DNA from: an uncultured Planctomycetales bacterium | GTDB lineage: Bacteria; Planctomycetota; SBBH01 | Assembly: GCA_964455625.1 (NCBI GenBank) | Contig: CAYVXZ010000002.1 | Coordinates: forward strand, 60,949 to 124,948 | Length of the DNA stretch: 64,000 bases | Direction: 5' to 3' | Shown: one piece after another, positions 4,537-63,980 of the stretch | Layout: every line of letters begins with the position of its first letter | How positions within the stretch are numbered: the first letter of the stretch is position 1 | Notes under the pieces: model-generated | The model's input: only the letters and a program-made list of their open reading frames with translations | The model's database searches: none | Told to the model about the DNA's origin: nothing | Translations under genes and position numbers: made by a program

Positions 4537-5691
4537 ATGCCTGCCGCGATCGGGGCGGAGCCGGCCCCCGTCCAGGAAATCCTGACCCGGGCGCGCGAGG
4601 GGGAGCGCCTCTCCCGCGAGGCGGCCTCCGCGCTCTGGGAGGGGGCGACGCTCGCGGATCTCGGCGCGGCGGCGCACGCGCTCCGGATGAGAAAGGTCCC
4701 GCGTCGCGTCGTGACCTATCTCGTCGACCGGAACATCAACTACACGAACGCCTGCGTCACCGTCTGCAAGTTCTGCTCCTTCTACCGCTATCCCGGGGAT
4801 CCGGAGGTCTACGTCCTGACGAAGGACGAGATCGGGGCGAAGATCGATGAACTCGTCGCGATCGGCGGGACGCGGATCCTGATGCAGGGGGGACACAACC
4901 CGGATCTCCGGATCGCCTGGTACGAGGACCTCCTGCGCTGGATCCGGGCAGGGTGGCCCGCGCTCGCGATCGACGCCTTTTCCCCGTCGGAGATCGACCA
5001 TATCGCGCGGGTGGAAGGGATGACGGTCGAGGCGGTCCTCGGACGCCTGCAGGAAGCGGGGCTCACCGGGCTCCCGGGCGGCGGCGCCGAGATCCTGGAC
5101 GACGCGATGCGCGGCTGGATCAGCCCCCTGAAGCAGAAGGCGGACGGATGGCTTTCTGTGATGCGGACGGCCCAGAAGAGGGGCCTCGCCACCTCCGCCA
5201 CGATGGTGATCGGCTTCGGGGAGACCCTCGAGCACCGCCTCAACCACCTGGAGAGGCTCCGGGCCCTACAGGAGGAGTCGCTCGCGTCGCACGGGAACGG
5301 CTTCACGTCGTTCATCGCCTGGACGATGCAGCTGGCGCACAACGACCTGGGGAAGGCGGTCGCCCGCCGCGGCCACCGTCCGGCGGGGGCGCACGCGTAC
5401 CTGAAGAATCTCGCGCTCTCGCGCCTCTACCTCGACAACGTCGACCACCTGTCCGCCTCCTGGCCGACGCAGGGAGAGGCGGTGGCGCAGGTGGGGCTTG
5501 TCTTCGGGGCGGACGATTTCGGGAGCACCATGATGGAGGAGAACGTCGTCTCCGCCTCGGGGGCCGTGGAATGCCGCAAGACGGTGGAGACGATCCGCCG
5601 GCAGATCCGGGCCGCGGGGTACCGGCCCGCCCAACGCGATACGCGTTACAGGCCCGTCGGGGAAGGGTCGATAGAGGATGAAGCGGGTTGA
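4537..5691 (+). CDS. radical SAM enzyme of the futalosine menaquinone pathway (MqnC/MqnE-type; cannot be distinguished by eye)
   Basis: Track ORF 4084..5691 trimmed to ATG at 4537 (MPAAIGAEP). CxxxCxxC radical-SAM motif in NACVTVCKFCSF. Overall similarity to the MqnC/MqnE/CofH family (GGTRILMQGGHNP, GGAEIL). Confidence 0.7.
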   Translation: MPAAIGAEPAPVQEILTRAREGERLSREAASALWEGATLADLGAAAHALRMRKVPRRVVTYLVDRNINYTNACVTVCKFCSFYRYPGDPEVYVLTKDEIGAKIDELVAIGGTRILMQGGHNPDLRIAWYEDLLRWIRAGWPALAIDAFSPSEIDHIARVEGMTVEAVLGRLQEAGLTGLPGGGAEILDDAMRGWISPLKQKADGWLSVMRTAQKRGLATSATMVIGFGETLEHRLNHLERLRALQEESLASHGNGFTSFIAWTMQLAHNDLGKAVARRGHRPAGAHAYLKNLALSRLYLDNVDHLSASWPTQGEAVAQVGLVFGADDFGSTMMEENVVSASGAVECRKTVETIRRQIRAAGYRPAQRDTRYRPVGEGSIEDEAG

Positions 5692-5757
5692 TCGACGGAG
5701 ACCCCTAGATATAGTGGTCCCGGAGCGATAGGGCCCCAATTGAAAGGAGGAGAGCGC

Positions 5758-6453
5758 ATGGGAAACAGGTTTCTGGGTGTGGCGGTCGCGGCGACCCTGA
5801 TGATGGGGGTTGCTGCCCCCGCACACGCCGAGGGGAACGAGATCGTGAACGGGATGGGCAAGAAGCTCGTCCGCGGGTTCGTCGACACGTTCACCGGCAT
5901 CGTCGAATGGCCCGTCCAGACCTACAAGGGCTGGAACAACGGCATCAAATTCATCAAGAACGAGACGGGGTCGAAGATCACGGGGGGCGTCGTCGGGTTC
6001 CTCTTCACCGGGCCGAGCCACACGCTGGGCCGCACCGGTTCGGGGCTCCGCGACCTCTTCGGGTTCTGGACCGCCAACCCCAAGGACAATGACGGGGTGG
6101 GGACGCCGCTCGATGCCGAGTATTCCTGGGAGGAAGGGACGAAGTACGATTGCTTCGAGCCCAATCTCGGGGACGGGCTCCTCAAGCCCTGGGGCCGCAA
6201 GATCGTCCGCGGCGTCGGGAACGGCATCGGCGCGATCCTGGAGCTTCCCGGCCAGATCGTGAAGGGATGCAAGGAGGACAAGGTGGGTACCGGCATCGTG
6301 AAGGGGATCTGGTATCCCTTCAGCCGCGGCGCCTACGGGATCGGGGAGGCGTTCACCTTCTTCCTCCCGAACCACAAGGACAACCTCGGCCATGCCTTCG
6401 AGGAGAAGTGGCCCTGGGACGCCCTGGTGGGGAATTCCGGAAACGCGAAGTAG
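5758..6453 (+). CDS. secreted repeat protein resembling the exosortase-associated TIGR04073 family
   Basis: AGGAGG at 5745-5750 then ATG at 5758. Signal peptide MGNRFLGVAVAATLMMGVAAPAHA. Internal repeat units (KLVRGxxDxxTGxxExP.Q..KG ... GIxKGIWYPFSRGAYGIGEAFTFFLPN). Confidence 0.6.
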   Translation: MGNRFLGVAVAATLMMGVAAPAHAEGNEIVNGMGKKLVRGFVDTFTGIVEWPVQTYKGWNNGIKFIKNETGSKITGGVVGFLFTGPSHTLGRTGSGLRDLFGFWTANPKDNDGVGTPLDAEYSWEEGTKYDCFEPNLGDGLLKPWGRKIVRGVGNGIGAILELPGQIVKGCKEDKVGTGIVKGIWYPFSRGAYGIGEAFTFFLPNHKDNLGHAFEEKWPWDALVGNSGNAK

Positions 6454-7221: not shown

Positions 7222-8346
7222 TCAGCCCGTGATGCCCGAGCGCGCCTCGTCGAGGGTGATCCCCGCCAGGCGCATCCGGAGCGCCTCCGGATTCGGCGAC
7301 GCCTCCAGACCGGTCGCCTCGCTGATGGACCCTTCGACGATCAGCCGGTGGATCGAGTGGTTGAAGTCGTGCATCCCCTTCTCCTTGGCGCCGCGCACGA
7401 CGTCGGGGAGCTTGTGGTCCTCGGCCTTCCGGATCAGCTCCTTCACGATCGGCGTCACGAACATCACCTCGGTGGCGGGGACGCGCGGTTTCTCGGGTTT
7501 GAGGCCCGGCAGGAGCTTCTGGCAGACGATCGCCCGCAGGTTGAAGAAGAGCCCCAGGCGGATCTGGGCGTGGCGCGCCTCGGGGTAGAGCTCGAGGATC
7601 CGCAGGATCGACTGTCCCGCGCTCGCCGCGTGGAGGGTCGAGAAGACGAGGTGCCCCGTCTCGGCGGCGGCGATCGCGGCGTCGAACGTCTCGCCGTCGC
7701 GCATCTCGCCGATCAGGATCGTGTCGGGGTCCTGGCGCATCACCTGGCGCAGGGTCTCGCGGAACGAGGCGACGTCGATTCCCACCTCGCGCTGGGTCAC
7801 GAACGCCTTCCGGTCCACGATCACGTACTCGATCGGGTCCTCGACGGTGGCGATGTGGATCCGCCGCGTCGCGTTGATCTGGTCGAGGATCGAGGCGATT
7901 GTGGTGGTCTTCCCGGAGCCGGTCGGGCCGCAGACGAGGACAAGCCCTTCCTCGATCGCGAGGAGCCTTTCCATGGTGTCCTTCGGGAGGTGGAGGTCGG
8001 CGAAGCCGGGGATGCGGCTTTTCACGCGCCGCACGGCCATGGCGACGTTCCCCCGCTCGCGGAAGACGTTCACGCGGAACCGGTCGTCGCCCGAGGTGAT
8101 GGCGAGATCGACCGCGCCGACCCGGTTCAGCTCCGCCAGGTGCTCTTCCGAGAGGATCTCGTAGACCATTTCCTTGACGATCCCGGCCGTGAGGGGCGCC
8201 GTCTCGAGCGGCTTGCAGTCACCCGCCAGGCGCAGGACAGGAGGCGCTCCCGTCTTCACCAGGAGGTCGCTTCCCTCGTGCTTCACCAGCGCCTTGAGGA
8301 GCGTCTGGAGCGACGAGGATTTCGGGGATTCGCCTTGAACCGGCAT
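7222..8346 (-). CDS. pilT: type IV pilus retraction ATPase PilT
   Basis: 374 aa. Walker A GPTGSGKTT. PilT/PilU family blocks (RVNVF, LVFSTLH, GEMRD) throughout. Confidence 0.85.
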   Translation of the reverse strand: MPVQGESPKSSSLQTLLKALVKHEGSDLLVKTGAPPVLRLAGDCKPLETAPLTAGIVKEMVYEILSEEHLAELNRVGAVDLAITSGDDRFRVNVFRERGNVAMAVRRVKSRIPGFADLHLPKDTMERLLAIEEGLVLVCGPTGSGKTTTIASILDQINATRRIHIATVEDPIEYVIVDRKAFVTQREVGIDVASFRETLRQVMRQDPDTILIGEMRDGETFDAAIAAAETGHLVFSTLHAASAGQSILRILELYPEARHAQIRLGLFFNLRAIVCQKLLPGLKPEKPRVPATEVMFVTPIVKELIRKAEDHKLPDVVRGAKEKGMHDFNHSIHRLIVEGSISEATGLEASPNPEALRMRLAGITLDEARSGITG

Positions 8347-8361
8347 CGGAAGCGAGTGTAA

Positions 8362-8433
8362 AGGAGCCAGTAGTCAGGAGCCAGTAGTCAGGAGAAATCG
8401 GCCCACTTTTTGTTCTTTATTCTGGCTCCTGAC
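8362..8433. repeat. intergenic direct plus inverted repeat (GGAGCCAGTAGTCAG x2, then T-rich spacer, then inverted CTGGCTCCTGA)
   Basis: 15-mer GGAGCCAGTAGTCAG at 8362-8376 and 8377-8391. TCAGGAGCCAG pairs perfectly with CTGGCTCCTGA at 8423-8433. Lies between the AI-2E stop (8417) and the pilT start (8346), in the pilT leader. Confidence 0.5.
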
Positions 8434-9574
8434 TTCTGACCCCCGGTTTCCTCTTCGGTTCTTCACCCCATGTGGCAGTGATGTAGGGACGTGCCAGATC
8501 GGTCCAGAGGATCTTGGTGGCCGACGCGAGCGGGACGGCAAGAAGCACCCCGAACAGCCCCAGCAGCTTTCCGAAGGCGAGAATGGCGAAGATGATCATG
8601 ACCGGGTGGAGGCTCGCGGTCCGTCCCAGGATCACCGGGCTCAAGACCCCCTCGATCACCTCCGAGAGGATGAAGACCACCGCCACGCCGACCAGGGCCG
8701 CGGTCGAGGCATCCTGCGCCGCGGCGAGCATCAGCGCCACCCCGCCCACCCCGAAGAGGCTTGCCGCCGGGAGGAGGCTCAAGAGGCCGCCCGCGAATCC
8801 CAGGATGAAGGCGTACGGGACGTCGAGAAGCCAGAGGCCCAGCGCGATCACCAGCGCCTTGAGGAGGCAGACGAGCGAGCGTCCGAAGATGAACCCCGCC
8901 ATCGCCGTGTCGATCCGCGCGAGGATCGCGAGGGTCTTCGCCCGGATCGCGGGAGGGATCAGGGGGGGGACGGTCGCGTAGAGCGCCGGTATCTTTTCCA
9001 GGAAGTAGAAGGCGTAGATCGGAACCAGCACCAGGAACGACAGGAACGAGAAGGCGCTGGCGAGAGGCGCCGTCGCCCGCTCGCCGAACCAGGAGGCGGC
9101 GCGTCCCAGGCGGTCGGCGAGGTCCTCCCGGCGCTTCGGCTCGTCGAGGAAGATCCCGAGCAGTTTCACCGCGTCGTCGTAGTGGGGGACTTCGCTCACA
9201 CGGGCGCCGAGCTTCTCCGCGATCTTCTCGATCCCCGCGGGTTGACGCTCGATGTAGTCCTGCAGCCGCTCGGCCGAGCGGACCGACTGGCGGTAGATCG
9301 GGGGGATCGCGTAGAGCAGGGCCGCCGCGAAGAGGAGGCCCGCCGCGCCGTAGAGGAGGAGGATCCCCCGGAAGCGGGAGATCCCCTTGCGCTCCATCCA
9401 GGTGACCGTGGGGTTCAGGATGTAGGCGACGAGGGCCGCCAGCAGGAGGGGATTCAGGACCGCGCGCAGGAGGTAGCCGACCCAGATCGCGAGGACGAGC
9501 CCCGCGAGGACCACCCCGAGCCGCTTCCAGTCGGGGCTGCGGGCCGCCGTCACGGGCGCTCCGAGAGGGTGCAT
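8417..9574 (-). CDS. AI-2E family (UPF0118 / PerM-like) membrane transporter
   Basis: Track ORF trimmed to ATG at 9574 (MHPLGAPV). Multi-pass membrane protein with AI-2E-like TM pattern (FIFGRSLVCLLKALVIALGLWLL...). Confidence 0.7.
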   Translation of the reverse strand: MHPLGAPVTAARSPDWKRLGVVLAGLVLAIWVGYLLRAVLNPLLLAALVAYILNPTVTWMERKGISRFRGILLLYGAAGLLFAAALLYAIPPIYRQSVRSAERLQDYIERQPAGIEKIAEKLGARVSEVPHYDDAVKLLGIFLDEPKRREDLADRLGRAASWFGERATAPLASAFSFLSFLVLVPIYAFYFLEKIPALYATVPPLIPPAIRAKTLAILARIDTAMAGFIFGRSLVCLLKALVIALGLWLLDVPYAFILGFAGGLLSLLPAASLFGVGGVALMLAAAQDASTAALVGVAVVFILSEVIEGVLSPVILGRTASLHPVMIIFAILAFGKLLGLFGVLLAVPLASATKILWTDLARPYITATWGEEPKRKPGVRSQEPE

Positions 9575-11907: not shown

Positions 11908-12004
11908 CAGTTCGCTTGCCACGGCCCCGATTGTATCAGTGGTTTTGTGATTCGTGGTTCGTGTTTCGTGGCTCGCAGCCCGCGCCATGCCCGCGAATCA
12001 CGCT

Positions 12005-12832
12005 TCACGCACCACGAATCACGGGCCGGATCGTCTCGACGCGTGTCACATGTTCCGGCTGGAAGGCGAGGCGCCGGCCGTCCCCTGTCCGGATCACGAT
12101 CCCCTCGGAAAGCCCCGCGGAAAGGACCTCTCCCTCATGGATCCCGCCGGGGGTCTCGACGCGCGCCGGCCGGCCGGCGAGGTCCGACCGCTCCCGCCAG
12201 GCGGTTTCCAGGGCGGCGACATCTCCCCGGGCCGCGTCGCGGTAGAGCGTTTCGAGGCGCGTCAGGATCGCCGCCAGGAGCGCCCGGCGATCGGTTTCGC
12301 GACCCGTTTCCGTCCGGACCGAGGTGGCGGTCCCGCGGATCTCCGGGGGCCAGTCTTCCGGAAGCGAATTCGCGTTGAGCCCGATCCCGACGACGTAGGC
12401 GGGGCGCCCCTGGATCTCGCGCGACTCGGCCAGGATCCCGCAGAGTTTTTTCTCGCCGACGTACAGGTCGTTCGGCCAGCGGATCTTAAGACCGACCTGC
12501 GCGAAGCGCGAAGCGCGAAGCGAATCACTGGACGCTTCGCGCTGGACGCTTCGCGAGTCTGGAAACCTCTTTTCCAGTGTTTCGCACACGGCGACCGCCC
12601 CGAGCGCCGTCACGACGCCGGCGGGCGCGAGCGGCCGCGCCGGATGCAGGAAGATCGAGAAGAGGAGGTCCTTGCCGGCGGGGGCGTGCCAGGTCCGGCC
12701 ATGGCGCCCTCGCCCGGCGGTCTGCCGGTCGGCCGCGACGCAGAGAAAGTCCGCCCCGCGCGCGGGACCCTCGATCCAGGCCGCGTCGTTCGTGGAGGGG
12801 ATTTCGGGAAGCCAGAGAGGATCGGTGGTCAC
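12005..12832 (-). CDS. birA: biotin--[acetyl-CoA-carboxylase] ligase BirA, with an in-frame insertion of about 20 aa
   Basis: GRGRHGRTWHAPAG and KIRWPNDLYVGEKKLCGILAE are BirA catalytic-core motifs. An extra RFPDSRSVQREASSDSLRASRFAQ segment is encoded by the palindromic repeat at 12498-12557. Confidence 0.75.
   Translation of the reverse strand: MTTDPLWLPEIPSTNDAAWIEGPARGADFLCVAADRQTAGRGRHGRTWHAPAGKDLLFSIFLHPARPLAPAGVVTALGAVAVCETLEKRFPDSRSVQREASSDSLRASRFAQVGLKIRWPNDLYVGEKKLCGILAESREIQGRPAYVVGIGLNANSLPEDWPPEIRGTATSVRTETGRETDRRALLAAILTRLETLYRDAARGDVAALETAWRERSDLAGRPARVETPGGIHEGEVLSAGLSEGIVIRTGDGRRLAFQPEHVTRVETIRPVIRGA
12498..12557. repeat. GC-rich palindromic element, copy 1, in-frame inside birA
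   Basis: (GCGAAGC)x3 ...ACTGGACGCTTCGCGCTGGACGCTTCGCGAG. The GCGAAGCG half and the CGCTTCGC half are reverse complements. Confidence 0.7.
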
Positions 12833-13830
12833 GGGCGTCGTGCGCCCCCGGCGGGGGGGATCGGACGAAGGTCCATCGCGATGTCGAGCGCCGGGGCCGA
12901 GTGCGTGAGGGCGCCCACCGAGATCCGGTCGACGCCGGTCGCGGCGATCGCGCCGACCTTGGCGAGGGTCACGCCGCCCGAGACCTCGAGAAGGGGGCGG
13001 TGGCCTTTCAGTCCGCGCACGAGGCGCACCGACTTCCGGACACCAGCTAAGGACATGTTGTCGAGGAGAAGGATGTCGGCGCCCCCTTGCCCCGCGGCGA
13101 GCGCCTCGTCGGGTGTCGTCACCTCGATCTCGATGGGGGAGCCGCGCGGCGCGGTCTTGCGCGCCAGTTGAACAATCTGCCGGTAAAACTCAGCGGATCG
13201 CGAAGCGCGAAGCGCGAAGCGTGAAGCGCCTCGCTTCGCGCTGGACGCTGGACGCTTCGCGAGGGCGATGTGGTTGTCCTTCACCAGCACCTGGTCGAAG
13301 AGGCCGATCCGGTGGTTGTCGCCGCCGCCTGTCCGCACGGCGTGCTTTTCCAGCAGGCGCATGCCGGGAAGGGTCTTCCGCGTGTCGAGGATCCGGCATC
13401 GGGTCTTTCTCGCGGCCCGGACGAACCGGCGCGTCTGCGTGGCGATCCCCGAGAGGTGCTGGAGGAAGTTGAGGGCCGTCCGCTCGCCGGCGAGCAGCGC
13501 CCGCGCGCTCCCGTACACCTCGGCGAGGCGCGTCCCTTTCCGGACCGCGTCGCCGTCCGCGGCGAGCGTCTTCACGAAGGCATCGGGGTCGATCCGGGTG
13601 AAGAGGGGCCGGAGCAGGGGGAGCCCCGCCACGACGCCGTCTTCCTTGGCGGCGAATGTCCCGATCGCGGCGAGGTCTTCCGGGATCAGCGCGTTCGAGG
13701 TCACGTCCCCCGGCCCGATATCTTCCGCGAGGGCCGCGCGCAGGAGATCCTGGATCTCCGGGAGATCGGGATTCAGGGAGGAACGGCGCCGCATGTCGCC
13801 AAGGTTAACCGACTGCGCGGGCAGATTCAC
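12829..13830 (-). CDS. nadC: nicotinate-nucleotide pyrophosphorylase (carboxylating) NadC, with an in-frame insertion of about 22 aa
   Basis: QPRTase motifs (ILDTRKTLPGMRLLEKHAVRTGGGDNHR, LVKDNHIA, ADILLLDNMS). Insertion PASSAKRGASRFALRASRSAEF is encoded by palindromic repeat copy 2. ATGA overlap with the birA start. Real start may be the internal ATG at 13794. Confidence 0.8.
   Translation of the reverse strand: MNLPAQSVNLGDMRRRSSLNPDLPEIQDLLRAALAEDIGPGDVTSNALIPEDLAAIGTFAAKEDGVVAGLPLLRPLFTRIDPDAFVKTLAADGDAVRKGTRLAEVYGSARALLAGERTALNFLQHLSGIATQTRRFVRAARKTRCRILDTRKTLPGMRLLEKHAVRTGGGDNHRIGLFDQVLVKDNHIALAKRPASSAKRGASRFALRASRSAEFYRQIVQLARKTAPRGSPIEIEVTTPDEALAAGQGGADILLLDNMSLAGVRKSVRLVRGLKGHRPLLEVSGGVTLAKVGAIAATGVDRISVGALTHSAPALDIAMDLRPIPPAGGARRP
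13196..13266. repeat. GC-rich palindromic element, copy 2, in-frame inside nadC
   Basis: ATCGCGAAGCGCGAAGCGCGAAGCGTGAAGCGCCTCGCTTCGCGCTGGACGCTGGACGCTTCGCGAG. Same GCGAAGCG/CGCTTCGC arms and CTGGACGCT core as copy 1. Confidence 0.7.
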
Positions 13831-58209: not shown

Positions 58210-59652
58210 ATGGAGGGATGGGGGGAGGCGTCCGTCGGGATCCGGCTCGGGGGGGGACTTCCCCGAGGGGCGCGCCTCCTCCTGGGGGTCTCCGGCGGGC
58301 CCGATTCGGTCGCGATGGCGGCATTGTTCCGGGAACGCTCGCCGCGTCGCGGCTGGACCGTCTCCTGGGCCCACGCGGATCACGGCCTGCGCGGGGCCGA
58401 ATCCGATGGGGATGCGGCGTTCGTGGCGCGTCTGGCCCGGGAGTGGGGAGTTTCCCTCCGGACCGGCCGTGTTCCGGTCGCGGGCCGGGGGTCGGTCGAG
58501 GCGGCCGCCCGCGCGGCCCGATATGCCTTCCTGGAGGAGGCCGCCCGCGCGGCCGGTGCGGGGTATGTCCTGACGGCCCATACGCGCGACGACCAGGCCG
58601 AAACGGTGCTCATGCGCCTCGCGCGCGGCTCCGGGGTGCGCGGGATGCGCGGGGTCCTGGCGTCGCGCCCGATCGCGCCCGGGTCGGACATCCGGCTCGT
58701 GCGGCCCCTCCTGATGGAATCCCGGGAACGCCTGCGTGCCGTCCTTGCCGCGCGTCAAATCCCGTTTCGCGCCGACTCGTCGAACCGCGACATGCGCTTT
58801 CAGCGGAACCGCGCCCGGGCGTTCCTGGCCGATCTCTCGCCCGCGCGGCCCGATCTCGTCGCCCGGCTTGCCGGTGCGGCGTCGGCGGCCGCGTTCCTGT
58901 GGGAGCGTGTCGAAAAGGCGCTTGCGCCGGCGCTCGAGGCGGCTTGGCGAGATACCGAGGGCGTCCCGTCGGTCGACACGGGCGTCCTGTCGGCGTTTTC
59001 GGAGCCGGTCACACGGGAGATCCTGCGGGAGGGGATCCGCCGGCGCGGGGGCGCGACGCTTTCCCGGGCGCATCTGGCGGCGCTCTGCCGCATGGCGTCG
59101 GGGCAGGGGGGGAGCGGCCGGTCGCTCGACCTTCCCGGCGGCACCTGGCGGCGCGAGTACGGGGACCTCGTCTGGGTCCGGTCCCGCGATGCCGCGCCCG
59201 AGGGGATCCCGATCCCCGGCGCGGGCCGCTACGCCTGGGGGGACTGGCACCTTTCCGTCGAGCGCGGCGCGGGGAACGGCTCCGCCGTTCCGGTCGTGCG
59301 GGAGTCGCTCTTTCCGCTGGTGGTCCGCCGCTGGCGTCCCGGCGACCGGATCCGGGCGGCGGGCGCGGACGGGAGGGCGAGAAGCCGCAAGATGAGCGAT
59401 TTCTGGGGCGACCGGAAGGTCCCGCGCACCGTCCGGGACGCCTGGCCCCTTCTCTGCCGGGAGGAAACGGTGGTCGTGGTTCCCGGGCTCGCCGTCCATG
59501 CGGAGGCGGCCCCGGCGCGGGGGGAGGAGGCGTTCCGCGTCACCGCGTCCGGCGGCGCCGTTGGCCGGGAATGGCTCCGTAGAGTCCGTGCCGCCGTGCG
59601 TAGCGGGCCACCGCGTCCGGCATCCGGTTCCATTCCGACCGGCGTTTCCTGA
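58210..59652 (+). CDS. tilS: tRNA(Ile)-lysidine synthetase TilS
   Basis: Track ORF 57652..59652 trimmed to ATG at 58210. PP-loop SGGPDS in LLLGVSGGPDSVAMAAL. LTAHTRDDQAETVLMRLARG block. About 480 aa. Confidence 0.7.
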   Translation: MEGWGEASVGIRLGGGLPRGARLLLGVSGGPDSVAMAALFRERSPRRGWTVSWAHADHGLRGAESDGDAAFVARLAREWGVSLRTGRVPVAGRGSVEAAARAARYAFLEEAARAAGAGYVLTAHTRDDQAETVLMRLARGSGVRGMRGVLASRPIAPGSDIRLVRPLLMESRERLRAVLAARQIPFRADSSNRDMRFQRNRARAFLADLSPARPDLVARLAGAASAAAFLWERVEKALAPALEAAWRDTEGVPSVDTGVLSAFSEPVTREILREGIRRRGGATLSRAHLAALCRMASGQGGSGRSLDLPGGTWRREYGDLVWVRSRDAAPEGIPIPGAGRYAWGDWHLSVERGAGNGSAVPVVRESLFPLVVRRWRPGDRIRAAGADGRARSRKMSDFWGDRKVPRTVRDAWPLLCREETVVVVPGLAVHAEAAPARGEEAFRVTASGGAVGREWLRRVRAAVRSGPPRPASGSIPTGVS

Positions 59653-60261
59653 TCGCGGTGGCGCTCGCGGGGTCCGGCCGCATCGGGAGGACGACGAACC
59701 GTTCGGCGATCGGGGCAAGGCGCCTTTTCGCGTCCGCGATCCCGCGGCGCGCCGGAAATCCGGGCCGTTCGCCGGTCGCGATCCGCGTCCTGTCGAGGAG
59801 CTCCCCGACGCGGTGCCAGGTGTGCAGGATCTCCAGGGAGTCGCTCCCCATCACGAGGAGGATCTCGGCATTCCGGCCGGCGCGCCGCCGGATCCGCCCG
59901 ACCGTGTCGATCGTGTAGGAGACCCGCCTCGGGCGGCGAAGCTCGCCGTCGTCGACCCGGACCGGGAACCCTTCCGCGCGCAGGAGCCGCGCCGCGATCC
60001 GCGCCATCGCGAGGCGGTGGCGGGGCGCCGCGAGGCGCCGGCCCCGCTTGTGCGGGGGGATCGCCGCCGGGACCAGGAGCAGTCGCGCGAGTCCCAGATT
60101 CCGGCAGGCGGCGCGCGCCAGGCTCATGTGTCCCCGGTGGATCGGGTCGAACGATCCTCCCAGGATGCCGATGCGAGGGGTGAGGGGTGAGGGATGAGGG
60201 GTGTGCAGGGGATTTTTTTTGACCCCTGACCCCTGACCCCTGACCCCTCGAAGTTGCGGCA
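59540..60261 (-). CDS. nadD: nicotinate-nucleotide adenylyltransferase NadD (start uncertain; N-terminus may be encoded by the heptad repeat)
   Basis: RIGILGGSFDPIHRGHM (HxGH motif) and downstream NMNAT blocks. Only in-frame ATG upstream of the conserved core is at 60261, which would add MPQLRGVRGQGSGVKKNPLHTPHPSPLTP translated from the repeat. Convergent 113-bp overlap with the tilS 3' end. Confidence 0.6.
60172..60249. repeat. composite heptad element copy 1: (GGGGTGA)-type G-rich arm, T8 run, (GACCCCT)x4 C-rich arm
   Basis: GAGGGGTGAGGGGTGAGGGATGAGGGGTGTGCAGGGG-GATTTTTTTT-GACCCCTGACCCCTGACCCCTGACCCCTC. Arms can pair with one G-G mismatch per heptad. Each strand carries a G4 motif of four G3-4 tracts. 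Confidence 0.7.
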
Positions 60262-60273
60262 TGACGACCCGGA

Positions 60274-61668
60274 TTGTACCGTTGGGCCGTGAGAAGGGAC
60301 CGCGCGCCCCGCGGCGCTTTTCCGTGTCTCGTGTGGGGTCCTTCCGCCCCGGCCGCGGCGCTGCGGGCCGCCCTGGCCCGGCGGGGGCATGCAGTCGACG
60401 TGGTCCGTTCCCCGGCCCAGGTCGCCGCGCGGGCCGGCCGGCGGCGCGCATTCGTCTTCATCGACCTCGGCGCGCACCCCGAGGACGGTTTCGACCTGAT
60501 CCAGGAACTCTCCGACCTCGACGAGCCGCCGCAGGCGATCGCGGTGGTTCCGGTCTCGGGGCTCGCGACGGCGCTCTCGGCCGTCCGGCAGGGGGCCAGC
60601 GACTATCTCACCGTTCCGGTGCGCGATGGGGAACTGGACCATGTCCTCGCGCGCGCGGACGAGCGTGAGCGCCTCGCGCGTCGCGCGCAGGCGAACGCGG
60701 TCCTGGCACACCGCCCGCCGGTCTTCCCGGATCTCGTGGGGCGCTCCTCCGCCACGCGCGCGATCCAGGGGTTCGTGCGAAAGGCCGCCCGGGCGCAGCT
60801 TCCCGTGATGCTCGCGGGCGAGACCGGAACCGGGAAGGACCTCGTGGCGCGCCTCATCCACGACGCGGGGCCCCGCGCGCACGCGCCGTTCGTGACCCTG
60901 AACTGCGCCGGTCTGACCTCCGACCTCCATACGGCGCAGCTCTTCGGCTACGAGAAGGGGTCGTTTACAGGGGCCGCCGAGCGCCACCAGGGGATCTTCG
61001 AGGCGGCGGACGGCGGCACCCTGTTCCTGGACGAGATCGACGCCCTGCACCCGGCCGCCCAGGCGGGGCTCCTGCGCGCGATCGAGAGCGGCGAGGTGCG
61101 CCGTGTGGGCGCCGCCGCCACGATCCGCGTCAACGTCCGCGTGGTCGTCGCCACGACCGCGGACCTCGCCCGGGCCGTCGAGAAGGGGAGCTTCCGGAAG
61201 GACCTCTTCTACCGGGTGGGAGGGCTCACGTTCCGCGTCCCGTCCCTCCGGGAGCGTGCCGCCGACGTCCCGGCGCTCGCGCAATACTTCCTGGCGCGCC
61301 TGCGCGGCGGGCGCCGCGCCCTCGCCTTCAGCCGGCAGGCGCTCTCGGCGCTCTCGGCGCATGCCTGGCCGGGGAACGTCCGGGAGCTCCGGAACCTGGT
61401 CGAGCGTCTGGTCCTCACGGTATCGGGCGACCGGATCGAGGCCGCGGACGTCCGGTCGCACCTCGCGGCGGTGCGACCAGCGGGAGAGGACCCGGTGGGG
61501 GAGACGCTGGAGTCGGTCGAGAAGGGGCACATCGAGCGGATCCTTGCGCGCTACCGCGGCAACAAGACGCATGCCGCGCGGGCCCTGGGGATCTCGCTCC
61601 GGAACCTCTACCAGAAGATCGACCGCTACGGCCTGGGGAAGGCCGTCGAGACGTTCAGGAAGTCCTGA
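60274..61668 (+). CDS. sigma-54-dependent response regulator (NtrC family; atypical receiver)
   Basis: Receiver-like N-terminus (RRAFVFIDLG). AAA+ sigma-54 domain (VMLAGETGTGKDLVARLIH, GYEKGSFTGA = GAFTGA-type). C-terminal Fis-type HTH (NKTHAARALGISLRNLYQKI). Start could be the internal GTG at 60331. Confidence 0.8.
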   Translation: MYRWAVRRDRAPRGAFPCLVWGPSAPAAALRAALARRGHAVDVVRSPAQVAARAGRRRAFVFIDLGAHPEDGFDLIQELSDLDEPPQAIAVVPVSGLATALSAVRQGASDYLTVPVRDGELDHVLARADERERLARRAQANAVLAHRPPVFPDLVGRSSATRAIQGFVRKAARAQLPVMLAGETGTGKDLVARLIHDAGPRAHAPFVTLNCAGLTSDLHTAQLFGYEKGSFTGAAERHQGIFEAADGGTLFLDEIDALHPAAQAGLLRAIESGEVRRVGAAATIRVNVRVVVATTADLARAVEKGSFRKDLFYRVGGLTFRVPSLRERAADVPALAQYFLARLRGGRRALAFSRQALSALSAHAWPGNVRELRNLVERLVLTVSGDRIEAADVRSHLAAVRPAGEDPVGETLESVEKGHIERILARYRGNKTHAARALGISLRNLYQKIDRYGLGKAVETFRKS

Positions 61669-61729
61669 TCCGGTTTTCTTTCGACAACTTTCAGTGTGCC
61701 GCGCGGTCCCGCGGGGCATTTCGTGATCC

Positions 61730-62260
61730 TCACCCCGGCTTCATGACCGGGGCGGGATCTCCCTGCGGAAAGAGATCGGTGACGAGGCGGTCCGACCAGT
61801 CGGCGAGGATCCCGGCGAGCTCCAGGTAATCCTTCCGCGAGAACCCGACTCCCGTGAAGGCGATCTTGCCGGAACTGTTTACCGCCCCGGAACTGTTTAC
61901 CGCCCCGGAACGGTTTACCGCAAAGAGAGTCGGGACGTTCGTGAGCCCGTAGCGGGTCGAGACCGGGTAGTCCGGCCCGTCGGAACAGAGGGGGAACGAG
62001 GCGTTCCCGTTCTCGCGCGCGAAGACGAGCGCCTCCGGGGCGGGGTCCTGCGCGATCCCCAGGAACGTCACGCAGTCGCCGTACGCCTGGTTCAGCCTCT
62101 CGATGTAGGGGAAGGCGAGCCGGCAGGTGGGGCAGGTGACCTTGAAGAAGGCGACGAGCGCCGGCCCGGTCTTGAGGATGTCACCGAGCGCGTGCGTCTT
62201 TCCCCTGGCGTCGACCAGGGAGAAATCGGGGGCGACCGTTCCCGGGGCCAGGGCGCTCAC
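61730..62260 (-). CDS. thioredoxin-fold thiol-disulfide oxidoreductase / peroxiredoxin-like (AhpC-TSA/TlpA family)
   Basis: APDFSLVDARGKTHALGD...ALVAFFKVTCPTCR with CPTC redox motif. Contains in-frame 18-bp tandem repeat. Confidence 0.65.
   Translation of the reverse strand: MSALAPGTVAPDFSLVDARGKTHALGDILKTGPALVAFFKVTCPTCRLAFPYIERLNQAYGDCVTFLGIAQDPAPEALVFARENGNASFPLCSDGPDYPVSTRYGLTNVPTLFAVNRSGAVNSSGAVNSSGKIAFTGVGFSRKDYLELAGILADWSDRLVTDLFPQGDPAPVMKPG
61871..61924. repeat. in-frame 18-bp tandem repeat (GGAACTGTTTACCGCCCC x about 3) inside the thioredoxin-like gene
   Basis: Three consecutive units. Third unit diverged (GGAACGGTTTACCGC). Encodes SGAVNS-SGAVNS-SGAVNR in the minus-strand protein. 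Confidence 0.6.
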
Positions 62261-62281
62261 GGGCGGATGATAGGGGGGCGG

Positions 62282-63310
62282 TCAATCGACGGCCAGAACC
62301 ACCTTGCCGACGTGCGTCCCTTTCTCCAGGTACTCGTGGGCCGCGCGGGCGTCGGCGAGCGGGAAGACGCGGTCGACGACAGGGCGGATCTTCCCCTGCC
62401 CCGCGAGTTTCAGGACTTCTCCCAGCTGCCAGCAGGACCCCAGATAGGAGCCGTGCAGCGAGATGCGCCTGGCGAAGAGAGCACCGAGCGGCAACGTGGC
62501 CGAAGGGCCCGCCGTCACGCCGCAGAAGGCGATCCGTCCCCCGGGGGCGAGGAGATCCGGGAGGCGCGCGAACGGCTCGCCGCCGACGGAATCGCAGACG
62601 ACGTCGACCCCCCGGCCGCCCGTGATTTCCCGGACGCGGGCCGCGATGTCTCCGGCCTTGCGGTCGATCACGTGGTCGGCGCCGAGCGTTTTCAGGCGAT
62701 CGAGCTTTTCAGGGGAGCCGGCGCTCGCGATCACCGTCGCGCCGAACGCCCTGGCGAGCCGGACCGCGGCCGTCCCGACCCCGCTCGCCGCGGCGGTGAC
62801 GAGGACGGTCTCGCCGGGGGCCAGCTTCGCGCGGGAAAGAAGCATCTCGAAGGCGGTGACTGCCGCCAGGGGGAGCGCCGCCGCTTCCGGGAAATCCCAC
62901 CCCTCGGGGATCGGGAAGATCGCGCGCGCGGGGGCGAGGACATGTTCGGCATATCCCCCCGGAAAGGAACGTCCCAGGATCCCGAAGGAGGGGCAGAGGG
63001 GCTCCGTCCCTTTCCGGCAGGCGTCGCACGTCCCGCAGGAGCGGGCCGGGAAGAGGAGCACGCGCCTTCCGGCGAGCGCCGGATCGACCCCGTCGCCGCA
63101 GGCATCCACGATGCCGGCGATGTCGCTCCCGAGGACGTGGGGAAAGGGGACGCCCCCGCGGGCGCCTTGTCTCACCCAGAGATCGAGATGGTTCAGGGCG
63201 CAGGCGCGCACCCGGACGCGCGCCTCGCCGGGGCCCGGGACGGGATCGGGAAGGGGCCCGACTGAGAGGACCTCGGGGCCGCCGTGCCGCTCGATGAAGA
63301 CGGCCTTCAC
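62282..63310 (-). CDS. zinc-binding alcohol dehydrogenase / quinone oxidoreductase (MDR superfamily)
   Basis: GTG start at 63310 (MKAVFIERHGGPEVL). GHEVxG-like HVLGSDIAGIV. Rossmann fold VTAAASGVGTAAVRLA. 342 aa. Confidence 0.8.
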   Translation of the reverse strand: MKAVFIERHGGPEVLSVGPLPDPVPGPGEARVRVRACALNHLDLWVRQGARGGVPFPHVLGSDIAGIVDACGDGVDPALAGRRVLLFPARSCGTCDACRKGTEPLCPSFGILGRSFPGGYAEHVLAPARAIFPIPEGWDFPEAAALPLAAVTAFEMLLSRAKLAPGETVLVTAAASGVGTAAVRLARAFGATVIASAGSPEKLDRLKTLGADHVIDRKAGDIAARVREITGGRGVDVVCDSVGGEPFARLPDLLAPGGRIAFCGVTAGPSATLPLGALFARRISLHGSYLGSCWQLGEVLKLAGQGKIRPVVDRVFPLADARAAHEYLEKGTHVGKVVLAVD

Positions 63311-63409
63311 GAGGAGGGGTGAGGGGCGAGGGGTGAGGGGACAACGGCCTGCACAAGGTTTGTCATTTTTTTTCTTTCTCTGACCCCTGACCCCTGACCC
63401 CTGACCCCT
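63311..63409. repeat. composite heptad element copy 2: G-rich arm, spacer with T8 run, (GACCCCT)x4
   Basis: GAGGAGGGGTGAGGGGCGAGGGGTGAGGGG...TTTGTCATTTTTTTTCTTTCTC-TGACCCCTGACCCCTGACCCCTGACCCCTG. Same architecture as 60172-60249. Lies between the pduO-like gene and the adh start. Confidence 0.7.
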
Positions 63410-63980
63410 GCTGTTCCGGGATCCATTCGATCTCGGGCCTCTTCGCGCGGCGGTTCGCCGCCCGCGCCATTGTGAAGAGGAGATCCGAGAGGCGGTTCAT
63501 GAACCGGACGACCTCGGGGTCGACCCGGTCCTTCTCGGCGAGCGCGATGAGCGACCGCTCGGCGCGCCGGCAGGCGGTCCGTCCCAGGTGGAACCAGGCG
63601 GCAAGCTCCGTTCCCCCGGGGAGGATGAACCGGCGCAGGGGGGGGAGTTCCGTATCGAGGCGGTCGATCCAGCTTTCGAGGAGCTTCGTGTCCGCCTCAC
63701 GGATCCGCGGCGTTTTCGGGTGCGGCTTCGGGGAGGCGAGGTCCGCCCCCACCACAAACAGGAGATCCTGGATCCGCGCCAGCATCGCGGTGAGTTCCCT
63801 GTCACGCGAGACGCTGCGCGCGAGCCCGAGGATCGCGGAGAGCTCGTCCGACTCGCCGTAGGCGTCGATCCGCGGATGCGCCTTCGAGACGCGTCCGGCG
63901 CCGAAAAGCCCCGTCGTTCCGGCGTCTCCGGTCTTCGTGTAGATCTTGTGCCTGTTGGGCGGCGCGGCGCGCTTTCTCAA
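63363..63980 (-). CDS. PduO-type ATP:cob(I)alamin adenosyltransferase (N-terminus may extend past window end)
   Basis: KIYTKTGDAGTTGLFGAGRVSKAHPRIDAYGESDELSAILG is the PduO-type signature. C-terminal 20 aa (..QQGSGVRGQGSEKEKK) are translated from the heptad repeat. TTG at 63980 is the first start in window. Confidence 0.65.
   Translation of the reverse strand: MRKRAAPPNRHKIYTKTGDAGTTGLFGAGRVSKAHPRIDAYGESDELSAILGLARSVSRDRELTAMLARIQDLLFVVGADLASPKPHPKTPRIREADTKLLESWIDRLDTELPPLRRFILPGGTELAAWFHLGRTACRRAERSLIALAEKDRVDPEVVRFMNRLSDLLFTMARAANRRAKRPEIEWIPEQQGSGVRGQGSEKEKK

What the first reader, a model, noticed from the sequence alone, without database searches (positions are those of the whole stretch)
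60172..63409. Composite heptad element present twice: (GGGGTGA)n, T-run, (GACCCCT)n, with G4 motifs on both strands, fused to gene ends
Two copies about 3 kb apart share the same architecture: a G-rich arm of four or five GGGG tracts, a spacer with a T8 run, and four perfect GACCCCT heptads. The arms are near-complementary, with one G-G mismatch per heptad, so they can form a long hairpin whose T-run sits in the loop. This is not classical terminator geometry. Each strand also carries a canonical G-quadruplex motif, GGGG-N3-GGGG-N3-GGGG-N3-GGGG. Copy 1 lies in the divergent region between nadD and the sigma-54 response regulator. If nadD starts at its only in-frame ATG (60261), its first 27 codons are read from the element (MPQLRGVRGQGSGVKKNPLHTPHPSPLTP). 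Copy 2 lies between the pduO-type gene and adh. The pduO-type ORF ends with ..GSGVRGQGSEKEKK read from the C-rich arm. The adh GTG start abuts the G-rich arm with no SD. Telomere-like G-rich heptads at gene boundaries of NAD and cobalamin-related genes could act as a structural RNA or DNA switch controlling translation initiation.
Basis: seen in the sequence. Interest (0 to 1): 0.65.

Follow-up and report, generated by a model that had tools for sequence, protein, structure and literature searches.

The report
Paired heptamer-repeat hairpins at gene ends
The two "composite heptad elements" are real, but they are two of at least six inverted 7-base repeat hairpins in this window and belong to a known, poorly understood bacterial repeat class, not to a switch specific to NAD or cobalamin genes.

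Summary
Copy D (60177-60248) and copy E (63316-63409) each have about four GGGGYGA units, a T8 run and four perfect GACCCCT units. Chance expects 0.05 matches; six were found.

They are not a private pair. The window holds four more elements with the same layout but other heptads. Two of these sit in frame inside nadC and birA. All six fold into long hairpins (-41 to -57 kcal/mol, z -3.6 to -7.4).

(GACCCCT)3 occurs in more than 120 genome stretches from at least 12 phyla and in 57 viral-contig stretches.

Relatives show fast turnover. A 48-nt arm is present or absent at the nadD 5' end. About 55 nt (spacer plus arm) is present or absent between pduO and adh. The same nadC, birA and nadD sites carry different heptads in different lineages.

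The architecture matches published heptameric repeats: GGGAATC in Xanthomonas, GGGGAYT in Nostoc, TAACTGA in Beggiatoaceae. Those show four-unit preference, G4 motifs, inverted pairs, gene-end positions and missing Shine-Dalgarno sites.

Best reading: repeat DNA that turns over as whole arms and is tolerated where the sense strand stays stop-free. It probably makes adh translation depend on pduO translation. A dedicated NAD/cobalamin switch is not supported.

The parts
60177..60211 (+). Copy D, G-rich arm: GGGGTGA GGGGTGA GGGATGA GGGG TGTGCA GGGG. Read on the minus strand it encodes NadD residues ..PLHTPHPSPLTP.
   Evidence: A degenerate version of this arm is present in relatives L127 and L128.
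60213..60220 (+). Copy D, T8 run. It lies in the hairpin loop and encodes Lys-Lys-Asn on the minus strand.
60221..60248 (+). Copy D, four perfect GACCCCT units. TGA falls in all three plus-strand frames. The minus strand reads RGVRGQGSGV.
   Evidence: This arm, the A8 run and the following 8 nt form a 48-nt block that L127 and L128 lack.
59540..60262 (-). nadD (nicotinate-nucleotide adenylyltransferase) read from the ATG at 60260-60262. Codons 5-29 come from copy D. The conserved core starts at RIGILGGSFDP (60175 downward).
60289..61668 (+). Sigma-54-dependent response regulator. Its start is the GTG at 60289 or the TTG at 60274, 12-27 nt from the nadD ATG on the other strand. Copy D lies in its 5' region with TGACCCC on its sense strand.
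63316..63340 (+). Copy E, G-rich arm: GGGGTGA GGGGCGA GGGGTGA GGGG. On the minus strand it is the C-rich arm that ends 5 nt before the adh GTG.
   Evidence: Together with the preceding spacer it makes up the ~55 nt that relative L131 lacks.
63366..63373 (+). Copy E, T8 run. On the minus strand it supplies the Lys codons and is followed directly by the pduO stop codon (TGA, 63363-63365).
63382..63409 (+). Copy E, four perfect GACCCCT units. On the minus strand they encode the PduO tail GSGVRGQGS.
   Evidence: Identical 28/28 in relative L131. The closest relative, P0243, has no such tail.
63363..63980 (-). PduO-type ATP:cob(I)alamin adenosyltransferase. Homology to solved structures ends at ..EIEW (residue 186). 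The last 14 residues are read from copy E and its A-rich run.
62282..63310 (-). Zinc-type alcohol dehydrogenase / quinone oxidoreductase. GTG start at 63308-63310, with no Shine-Dalgarno.
8361..8445 (.). Element F: (GGAGCCA/GTAGTCA)n, a T-rich spacer, then CTGGCTC CTGACTT CTGACCC. It lies between the AI-2E transporter gene, whose ORF runs through one arm to its stop at 8417, and the pilT start at 8346.
11946..12025 (.). Element A: (GTGNTTC)4, an 18-nt spacer, then (CGNNNCA)4. The birA stop codon (12005-12007) lies inside one arm. The next gene starts in or just after the element.
12499..12557 (.). Element B: (GCGCGAA)3 ... (CGCTTCGCG CTGGA)2, in frame inside birA. It adds about 20 residues before the conserved LKIRWPND motif.
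13197..13262 (.). Element C: (GCGCGAA)4 ... CGCTTCGCG (CTGGACG)2 CTTCGCG, in frame inside nadC. It adds about 22 residues after the conserved KDNHI motif.

Best explanation
Copies D and E are two members of a dense population of inverted heptamer-array repeats, at least six in 64 kb. They belong to the heptameric long simple-sequence-repeat class already described in Xanthomonas, cyanobacteria and Beggiatoaceae.

Each arm is a tandem array of about four 7-nt units. Arms arise, are lost and are replaced as whole blocks. I infer slippage in a 7-nt register plus block insertion or deletion as the cause. Two opposed arms make a long hairpin.

The elements persist only where they do no harm: between genes, at the very ends of ORFs and in permissive protein loops. 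In those places the sense strand is free of stop codons, so the repeat is translated into low-complexity peptide. Examples are RGVRGQGSGVKK..TPHPSPLTP on NadD, GSGVRGQGSEKEKK on PduO, and about 20-residue inserts in NadC and BirA.

In D and E the one G-G clash per heptad has a clear consequence. It leaves the minus strand, which carries every gene that reads into them, with no stop in D and only the pduO stop in E. The plus strand has TGA in all three frames of both arms.

Likely effect on expression (inferred): the adh start has no Shine-Dalgarno and lies at the foot of a hairpin of about -49 kcal/mol. The 5' arm of that hairpin is translated by ribosomes finishing pduO, so adh translation probably depends on pduO translation. 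The hairpin 14 nt into nadD probably lowers nadD translation.

Shown: the architecture, the abundance, the in-frame reading, the turnover among relatives and the hairpin potential. Inferred: the slippage origin, near-neutrality and translational coupling.
For: Abundance of period 7 in the window:
- Period-7 runs number 7-8, against 0-2 for periods 5, 6, 8, 10 and 11. Periods 9 and 12, which match codon periodicity, gave 7 and 4 at the looser threshold.
- Six two-armed elements with four different heptad types all fold as long hairpins, z from -3.6 to -7.4.

In-frame reading:
- NadC has about 22 extra residues against solved structures, and BirA about 20.
- The NadD core starts 28 residues after the only ATG.
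- PduO homology ends 19 residues before the stop.

Turnover at orthologous sites:
- nadD 5' end: a clean 48-nt indel against L127 and L128, which keep the same ATG and the other arm. L130 has AT-rich heptads there instead.
- pduO-adh junction: L131 has only (AGGGGTC)4 plus an A-run, with an overlapping GTGA stop/start. P0243, at 87% identity, has no repeat tail.
- nadC loop: the window has a CGCGAAG-type hairpin, L122 and L123 have GGGGTSA arrays ('GSGVRGQKK'), L124 has CCATGGG, and distant homologues have nothing.
- birA loop: the same element in the window and L123, and a CTGAGTS hairpin in L124.

Stop-codon asymmetry:
- D has 7 plus-strand stops and 0 minus-strand stops.
- E has 6 plus-strand stops and 1 minus-strand stop, the pduO stop itself.

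Breadth:
- (GACCCCT)3 is found in more than 120 genome stretches from at least 12 phyla. Neighbouring arrays of related heptads are common, and 19 of 110 arrays have an upstream G-rich partner.
- 57 viral-contig stretches carry it.

Published precedent:
- Rehm et al. 2015 (PMC4692102) describe heptamer repeats with four-unit preference, G4 formation in vitro and 70-75 convergent inverted pairs per genome. They lie near ORF ends, are transcribed, and have no known function.
- MacGregor 2015 (PMC4679880) describes heptamers with stops in all three forward frames. They overlap upstream stops, sit just before starts that lack an RBS, and are translatable in reverse.
Against: - No direct evidence for slippage. 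No unit-number polymorphism was seen; the independent assemblies of this organism are identical.
- Perfect arms stay perfect between lineages whose flanks have diverged: 28/28 in E against L131 and 24/24 in B against L123. That suggests homogenisation or selection rather than neutral drift.
- There is a strong orientation bias: the G-rich arm lies 5' of the C-rich arm in 24 cases against 2. Simple slippage does not explain it.
- GACCCCT is much commoner than same-composition heptads: 57 stretches against 1 and 15.
- The direction of change, arm gain or arm loss, could not be resolved.
- Translational coupling is inferred from geometry only.
Confidence: 0.6

Rival explanations
1. Regulatory structure switch. 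G-quadruplex and hairpin forms compete in the DNA or RNA, and the balance controls translation initiation of nadD and adh.
For: - Strict G4 motifs occur only at these elements in the window.
- Stable hairpins overlap the nadD 5' codons and abut the SD-less adh start.
- Related heptamers form G4 in vitro (PMC4692102).
- Perfect arms are conserved between lineages.
Against: - There is no link to gene function. The same architecture lies at pilT, a transporter gene, birA and inside nadC.
- The same heptad lies next to unrelated genes across phyla.
- Close relatives lack one arm or the whole element.
- With both arms present, the hairpin (-47 to -57 kcal/mol) ties up the G tracts.
- Rehm et al. 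could not find a regulatory role.
- There is no Rfam match.
Confidence: 0.12
2. Small mobile element. A module of about 40-55 nt, (AGGGGTC)4 plus an A-rich tail or the matching C-rich arm, is copied into new sites, often next to an existing array. It would resemble a miniature non-autonomous transposon or the in-frame palindromic elements of Rickettsia.
For: - The indels are clean blocks of 48 nt and about 55 nt.
- The perfect four-unit arm is identical in D, E and L131, and near-identical in the L122 nadC array.
- In this lineage every (AGGGGTC)n array is followed by an A-rich run, in four different genes.
- The heptad is present in viral contigs and in many phyla.
- There are in-frame insertions in NadC and BirA.
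Against: - No target-site duplication and no terminal inverted repeats other than the arrays themselves.
- The spacers of D and E are unrelated and differ in length, 9 nt in D against 25 nt in E before the T-run.
- Arm unit numbers and unit variants differ from copy to copy.
- No transposase or reverse transcriptase was linked to them.
- Across phyla the T-rich leader is not general: 11 of 117 arrays.
Confidence: 0.2
3. Arrays of binding sites for a sequence-specific RNA- or DNA-binding protein, as proposed for TAACTGA repeats, acting after transcription at gene junctions.
For: - The position lies directly before starts that lack a Shine-Dalgarno (PMC4679880).
- Perfect arms are conserved.
- C-rich arrays lie twice as often as G-rich arrays just upstream of long ORFs on the sense strand, 38 against 19 of 99.
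Against: - Four unrelated heptads share the architecture within one genome.
- The heptad at a given site changes between relatives.
- No candidate binding protein was identified.
Confidence: 0.08
4. Unusual transcription terminators or attenuators: a hairpin, or a G4 followed by a U-run.
For: - Strong hairpins lie between co-directional genes.
- On the plus strand a G4-capable arm is directly followed by U8 in D.
Against: - The T-run is in the loop, not after the stem.
- The terminator scan finds nothing at either copy.
- No plus-strand gene ends upstream of D or E.
- Elements B and C lie inside essential genes.
Confidence: 0.03

Closest known systems
G-rich heptameric repeats GGGAATC (Xanthomonas) and GGGGA(C/T)T (Nostoc PCC 7120); Rehm et al. 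2015, PLoS One, PMC4692102
   Same: - A 7-nt unit carrying a G tract, with a preferred length of four units.
- G4 motif on one strand and a C-rich partner on the other.
- Frequent convergent inverted pairs able to form stem-loops.
- Location within about 50 nt of ORF ends: G-rich on the sense strand after stops, C-rich on the sense strand before starts.
- Length and sequence variation between close relatives.
- No known function.
   Different: - The unit here is GGGGT(G/C)A, in an uncultured bacterium with 69% GC.
- Every array in this window is paired.
- Several unrelated heptads share the architecture.
- Arrays overlap coding sequence and lie in frame inside NadC and BirA, whereas Rehm et al. 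found them under-represented in ORFs.
- An A/T-rich run accompanies the perfect arm in this lineage.
TAACTGA heptamer direct repeats of marine Beggiatoaceae, cyanobacteria and Bacteroidetes; MacGregor 2015, Front Microbiol, PMC4679880
   Same: - The heptamer contains TGA, so three units stop all three forward frames.
- The reverse orientation is translatable.
- Repeats overlap the stop of the upstream gene and sit a few nt before a start that lacks an RBS.
- The taxonomic distribution is patchy across phyla.
   Different: - That unit is AT-rich, with no G4 motif.
- It occurs almost only as direct repeats (one indirect repeat reported), so there is no hairpin.
STRR short tandemly repeated repetitive heptanucleotides of cyanobacteria (from my own knowledge; the three Calothrix PCC 7601 heptanucleotides are cited in PMC4692102)
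   Same: Tandem heptanucleotides, including a C4 or G4 unit (CCCCAGT), dispersed through the genome, mostly between genes.
   Different: A different unit and phylum. The paired hairpin arrangement and in-frame coding copies are not part of the original description.
Rickettsia palindromic elements (RPE), selfish palindromic DNA inserted in frame in protein genes (from my own knowledge; not tested here)
   Same: Hairpin-forming repeat DNA found in frame inside conserved protein genes, adding a peptide segment at tolerated sites. This applies to elements B and C, and to D as an N-terminal extension.
   Different: RPEs are families of about 100-150 bp with a conserved consensus, not arrays of 7-nt units. 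Here the sequence at one site differs between relatives.

Membership tests
Heptameric long simple-sequence repeats / G-rich heptamer repeats (Rehm 2015; Mrazek 2007 as cited there) | Head-to-tail tandem copies of a 7-nt unit | tested here: met
   TRF gives period 7 with 3.9-4.4 copies for all four arms. The exact-pattern search gives 6 matches against 0.05 expected.
Heptameric long simple-sequence repeats / G-rich heptamer repeats (Rehm 2015; Mrazek 2007 as cited there) | Each unit carries a G3-4 tract, so four units give a G-quadruplex motif | tested here: met
   [quoted passage not shown] D's plus strand meets the G3+ rule. Resamples give 0 strict motifs. Actual G4 folding cannot be tested here.
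Heptameric long simple-sequence repeats / G-rich heptamer repeats (Rehm 2015; Mrazek 2007 as cited there) | Preference for about four units | tested here: met
   All four arms of D and E have four units. In other genomes, arrays found with a three-unit probe had 3 units (73), 4 units (36) or more (18). The probe sets the minimum, so this wider distribution is only indicative.
Heptameric long simple-sequence repeats / G-rich heptamer repeats (Rehm 2015; Mrazek 2007 as cited there) | Period 7 over-represented relative to other long periods in the genome | tested here: met
   The window has 7-8 runs at period 7 and 0-2 at periods 5, 6, 8, 10 and 11. Relatives show the same pattern. The whole genome is not available.
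Heptameric long simple-sequence repeats / G-rich heptamer repeats (Rehm 2015; Mrazek 2007 as cited there) | Position close to ORF ends: G-rich on the sense strand at or after stops, C-rich on the sense strand before starts | tested here: met
   The PduO and AI-2E transporter ORFs end in G-rich arms. The adh and pilT starts follow C-rich arms. In other genomes C-rich arrays precede long ORFs 38 times and G-rich arrays 19 times out of 99 (a crude test).
Heptameric long simple-sequence repeats / G-rich heptamer repeats (Rehm 2015; Mrazek 2007 as cited there) | Occurrence as convergent inverted pairs | tested here: met
   Inverted-repeat search and folding. In other genomes a G-rich partner lies upstream of 24 arrays and downstream of 2.
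TAACTGA-type heptamer repeats (MacGregor 2015) | Stop codons in all three frames in one orientation, with the other orientation open | tested here: met
   D has 2, 2 and 3 stops in the three plus-strand frames and none on the minus strand. E has 2, 2 and 2 on the plus strand and one on the minus strand.
TAACTGA-type heptamer repeats (MacGregor 2015) | The unit is TAACTGA, present as direct repeats only | tested here: not met
   The units are GGGGYGA and GACCCCT, arranged as an inverted pair.
Intrinsic (Rho-independent) terminator | GC-rich stem-loop followed directly by a U-run | tested here: not met
   The T8 run lies in the loop. No terminator-like site was scored at either copy.
Miniature inverted-repeat transposable element (MITE) | Target-site duplication and a conserved internal sequence shared by copies | tested here: not met
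   The flanks GCCGATGC / CGAAGTTG (D) and TTCACGAG / GCTGTTCC (E) show no duplication. The spacers are unrelated and differ in length.
Rickettsia-type palindromic elements in coding sequence | In-frame insertion of a hairpin-forming repeat into conserved protein genes | tested here: met
   NadC has about 22 extra residues, BirA about 20, and NadD a 27-residue N-terminal extension relative to homologues.
Rickettsia-type palindromic elements in coding sequence | Copies belong to a sequence family with a conserved consensus of about 100-150 bp | tested here: not met
   The elements are 59-97 nt, built of different heptads, and the same site carries different heptads in relatives.
REP / BIME elements | Short imperfect palindrome with a conserved 5' tetranucleotide and an associated RAYT transposase | not tested
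   The genome was not searched for a RAYT gene. The arms are tandem heptads, not a single REP palindrome.
Curated structured RNA families (riboswitches, leaders, sRNAs; Rfam 15) | Match at or above a family's gathering score | tested here: not met
   cmscan of the whole window found 0 matches.

The most novel reading that the evidence does not exclude
Heptad arrays may be actively written and rewritten by a cellular or phage-borne activity, rather than arising by passive slippage. One candidate is templated repeat addition at hairpins or stalled forks by a reverse transcriptase or a primase-polymerase. Another is directed conversion between arrays. Six observations would fit this reading:
- The same heptad (GACCCCT) is found in at least 12 phyla and in viral contigs.
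- It is 4 to 57 times commoner than same-composition heptads.
- One heptad family replaces another at exactly the same sites in nadC, birA and nadD among relatives.
- Arms stay perfect and four units long while flanks diverge.
- An A-rich tail follows the perfect arm in this lineage.
- The G-rich arm lies 5' of the C-rich arm in 24 cases against 2.
Probability: 0.1. Interest if true: 0.85.

Novelty: new member of a known kind. Interest (0 to 1): 0.45.

Why it matters
Heptamer repeats are reported as the commonest long simple repeats in many bacterial genomes. The two detailed studies read here both end by saying that their role and origin are unknown.

This locus offers an unusually clean natural experiment:
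- Essential cofactor genes (nadC, nadD, birA, pduO-type) carry the repeats in frame or at their ends.
- Relatives at 70-87% protein identity show the same sites with no repeat, one arm, two arms, or a different heptad.

That makes several questions testable: how arms are gained and lost, whether the hairpin or the G4 matters, and whether translation of the upstream gene opens the downstream start.

It also has a practical side. Gene callers mis-set the nadD start in two lineages by choosing an internal Met that removes the HxGH motif. The repeat-encoded peptide segments will also look like low-complexity protein features.

Tried and rejected
- **Rfam scan of the whole window:** no match.
- **Promoter and terminator scan over 59900-63600:** nothing at either copy. 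A manual look for a sigma-54 promoter (TGGCAC-N5-TTGC) and for a -35/-10 pair using the TTGACC at 60219-60224 found no proper partner element.
- **T-run as a general feature:** rejected across phyla. T-rich sequence lies upstream of (GACCCCT)n in 11 of 117 arrays and downstream in 8 of 117. It does hold within this lineage.
- **General G4 enrichment in the window:** rejected, 21 motifs against 22 expected.
- **Target-site duplications or shared spacer sequence between D and E:** none.
- **Naming the organism:** failed.
  - Cluster look-ups gave no names.
  - A literature search for the accessions found nothing relevant.
  - The closest named homologues are only 43-55% identical, from Planctomycetota, Chloroflexota and Binatia.
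- **An apparent frameshift in L128/L129:** this was my own counting error, corrected by alignment.
- **ORF-context test:** the 'ORF stops at the array' count is inflated because the C-rich array itself carries stops in every frame, so I do not use it.
- **DNA for the closest PduO relative (P0243):** could not be fetched.
- **Mrazek 2007:** not held in the library. It is cited only through the two papers read.

Full report
**1. The observation**

Both copies are as described. On the plus strand copy D reads GGGGTGA GGGGTGA GGGATGA GGGG TGTGCA GGGG A, then T8 (60213-60220), then (GACCCCT)4 at 60221-60248. Copy E reads GGGGTGA GGGGCGA GGGGTGA GGGG (63316-63340). A 25-nt spacer follows, then T8 (63366-63373), CTTTCTCT, and (GACCCCT)4 at 63382-63409.

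The double heptad occurs 6 times against 0.05 expected. The arms pair except for one G-G clash per unit. Predicted RNA hairpins are -46.7 and -53.7 kcal/mol for D and -49.1 and -56.9 for E, and no shuffle folds as well.

[quoted passage not shown] Looser G4 motifs are at chance level in this 69% GC sequence. An independent assembly is identical across both copies.

**2. The gene ends**

- **nadD.** Its only canonical in-frame start is the ATG at 60260-60262. Homology to solved NadD structures begins at RIGILGGSFDP, 28 residues later, so codons 5-29 are read from copy D.
- **pduO-type ORF.** It matches solved adenosyltransferases up to ..EIEW and then runs 19 more residues. The last 14 (GSGVRGQGSEKEKK) come from copy E and its A-rich run.
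- **adh.** The GTG at 63308-63310 is preceded by CCCCTCACCCCTCCTC, with no Shine-Dalgarno.
- Pfam confirms the gene identities.

**3. Not a private pair**

Tandem-repeat and inverted-repeat searches show four more elements with the same plan, a heptad array, a spacer and the reverse-complement array, but with other units.

- **Element F (8361-8445)** lies between an AI-2E transporter gene and pilT.
- **Element A (11946-12025)** lies between birA and a membrane protein gene.
- **Element B (12499-12557)** lies inside birA.
- **Element C (13197-13262)** lies inside nadC.

Period 7 stands out against periods 5, 6, 8, 10 and 11. All six elements fold as long hairpins, z from -3.6 to -7.4.

B and C are in frame. 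Against solved structures NadC has about 22 extra residues after KDNHI, and BirA has about 20 before LKIRWPND.

In the three co-directional cases (A, E, F) the upstream ORF runs into the first arm and stops in it or just after it. The next start follows the second arm.

**4. Relatives**

*NadC.* Homologues at 65-77% identity carry inserts at the same loop, and more distant ones carry none. At the DNA level the window has a CGCGAAG-type hairpin. L122 and L123 have GGGGT(G/C)A arrays followed by an A-rich run, which encode 'GSGVRGQKK'. L124 has (CCATGGG)2.

*BirA.* The window and L123 share element B. L124 has a different hairpin built from CTGAGTS units at the same place. In that copy the one unit that would put TGA in frame is the mutated unit.

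*nadD 5' end.* L127 and L128 keep the same upstream sequence, the same ATG-CCG-CAA-CT and the C-rich arm in frame (MPQLTPPSSPLPLRIGILGG). They lack a clean 48-nt block made of (AGGGGTC)4, A8 and 8 more nt. L130 has a normal MSNLRIGILGG start preceded by AT-rich heptads. This supports the upstream ATG as the real start and shows that the arms behave as separate blocks.

*pduO-adh junction.* L131 has the same perfect (AGGGGTC)4 and an A-run, after which the pduO stop and the adh start overlap as GTGA. The window has about 55 extra nt, the spacer plus the C-rich arm. The closest PduO relative, at 87% identity, ends ..EIEWIPEKDRKD and has only 39 nt before the next gene.

Three close lineages therefore show three states: no repeat, one arm, two arms. 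I could not decide whether arms were gained or lost.

**5. Breadth**

They come from Planctomycetota, Acidobacteriota, Gemmatimonadota, Chloroflexota, Cyanobacteria, Verrucomicrobiota, Bacteroidota, Proteobacteria, Actinomycetota, Latescibacterota, Omnitrophota, Myxococcota and others.

Flanks often hold arrays of related heptads (GATCCCT, GACTCCT, GAGGCCT and so on). In 19 of 110 cases a G-rich period-7 array lies upstream, against 2 downstream. Viral contigs give 57 stretches with the same bias, 5 against 0.

Same-composition control heptads are much rarer in viral contigs, at 1 and 15 stretches. The B/C unit gives 5.

A gapped search for the window's own arm combination found 13 metagenome loci. 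Their arms mix GGGGTGA and GGGGTCA units.

**6. What is known**

*Rehm et al. 2015* describe GGGAATC repeats in Xanthomonas and GGGGA(C/T)T repeats in Nostoc.
- There are 70-75 convergent inverted pairs per Xanthomonas genome.
- They lie within about 50 nt of ORF ends, G-rich after stops on the sense strand or upstream of ORFs on the antisense strand.
- They are transcribed and vary between close relatives.
- No role was identified.

The same paper, and MacGregor 2015, cite Mrazek 2007 for heptamers being over-represented among long simple repeats and for a polymerase-slippage idea.

*MacGregor 2015* describes TAACTGA repeats. Forward copies stop all three frames and reverse copies can be translated. 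They overlap upstream stops and sit just before starts that usually lack an RBS.

Those features are the four units, G4 on both strands, the hairpin, fusion to gene ends and the missing Shine-Dalgarno.

**7. How it most likely works**

The elements are repeat DNA that turns over as whole arms. They survive only where the sense strand stays open.

In D and E the G-G clash has a concrete consequence. Both arms carry TGA on the plus strand, with 7 and 6 stops spread over all three frames. The minus strand, which carries every gene that reads into them, has none in D and only the pduO stop in E. A perfectly paired GGGGTCA/TGACCCC hairpin would close both strands.

The expression effects are inferred, not shown. 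The adh start lies at the foot of a strong hairpin whose first arm is translated by ribosomes finishing pduO. That arrangement would make adh translation depend on pduO translation. In L131 the two genes are coupled by an overlapping GTGA instead. The hairpin that begins 14 nt into nadD should lower its translation.

**8. What does not fit a purely passive picture**

- Perfect arms stay perfect between lineages whose flanks have diverged (28/28 and 24/24).
- The order of G-rich and C-rich arms is strongly biased (24 against 2).
- GACCCCT is favoured over same-composition units.
- In this lineage the perfect arm always carries an A-rich tail.

These points keep a mobile-module reading alive at about 0.2, and an active repeat-writing reading at about 0.1.

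**9. Verdict**

The finding is real and well above chance. It is a new member, in an uncultured high-GC lineage, of the known heptameric repeat class, not a new kind of switch.

Its added value lies in the orthologue series and the in-frame copies in NadC, BirA, NadD and PduO. Together they make the origin and effect of these repeats testable.

Noticed in passing
window 61869-61921: An 18-nt unit (CCGGAACTGTTTACCGCC) is repeated 2.9 times at 97% identity, in frame inside an AhpC/TSA-redoxin-like gene (61730-62260, minus strand). It gives AVNSSG three times. This is another sign of active tandem duplication in this genome.
   Followed up: partly
window 60260-60291; L127 760-776: The nadD ATG and the start of the divergent sigma-54 response regulator (TTG at 60274 or GTG at 60289) lie only 12-27 nt apart. 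Each gene's promoter must therefore lie inside the other gene or inside element D. No sigma-70-like or sigma-54-like promoter was recognisable.
   Followed up: partly
P0122 (this genome) and P0125 (L128/L129): Public gene calls start NadD at an internal Met (..HRGH-M-SLARA..), which removes the GGSFDPxHxGH nucleotide-binding motif. The likely reason is that the repeat-encoded N-terminus looks non-coding. The upstream ATG is in frame in all three lineages.
   Followed up: yes
L124 5748-5788 and 6168-6197: In relative GCA_005239795.1, complementary heptad arrays (GAAATGA)n and (TCATTTC)n lie about 380 nt apart. One overlaps the nadC stop and the other the birA start, so the pair brackets the whole intergenic region. 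In the window nadC and birA overlap by 4 nt instead.
   Followed up: no
L123 5361-5424: A GGGGTGA ... CTGGCCC/CTGACCC two-armed element (-58.8 kcal/mol) lies inside a FecR-like ORF (4916-6049, minus strand). It appears to be another in-frame coding copy.
   Followed up: partly
L085 (Candidatus Viridilinea) about 2565-2615; L005 (Micromonospora qiuiae) about 2354-2440: (GACCCCT)4 is directly followed by (AAACCCT)3, the plant-type telomere heptad, in L085. It is followed by (GAGGCCT)8 in L005. Arrays of different heptads abut one another.
   Followed up: no
L149; L156/L184/L194; L165/L185/L193 (viral contigs): Some IMG/VR contigs carry several separate sites with (GACCCCT)n arrays. Examples are UViG_3300028840_003139, 3300037486_000437 and 3300044798_000503. 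Phage or prophage DNA therefore carries the same repeats as cellular genomes.
   Followed up: no
L132 1090-2106: A DDE_5 transposase gene lies in the relative's contig about 4 kb upstream of pduO. No link to the repeats is evident.
   Followed up: no
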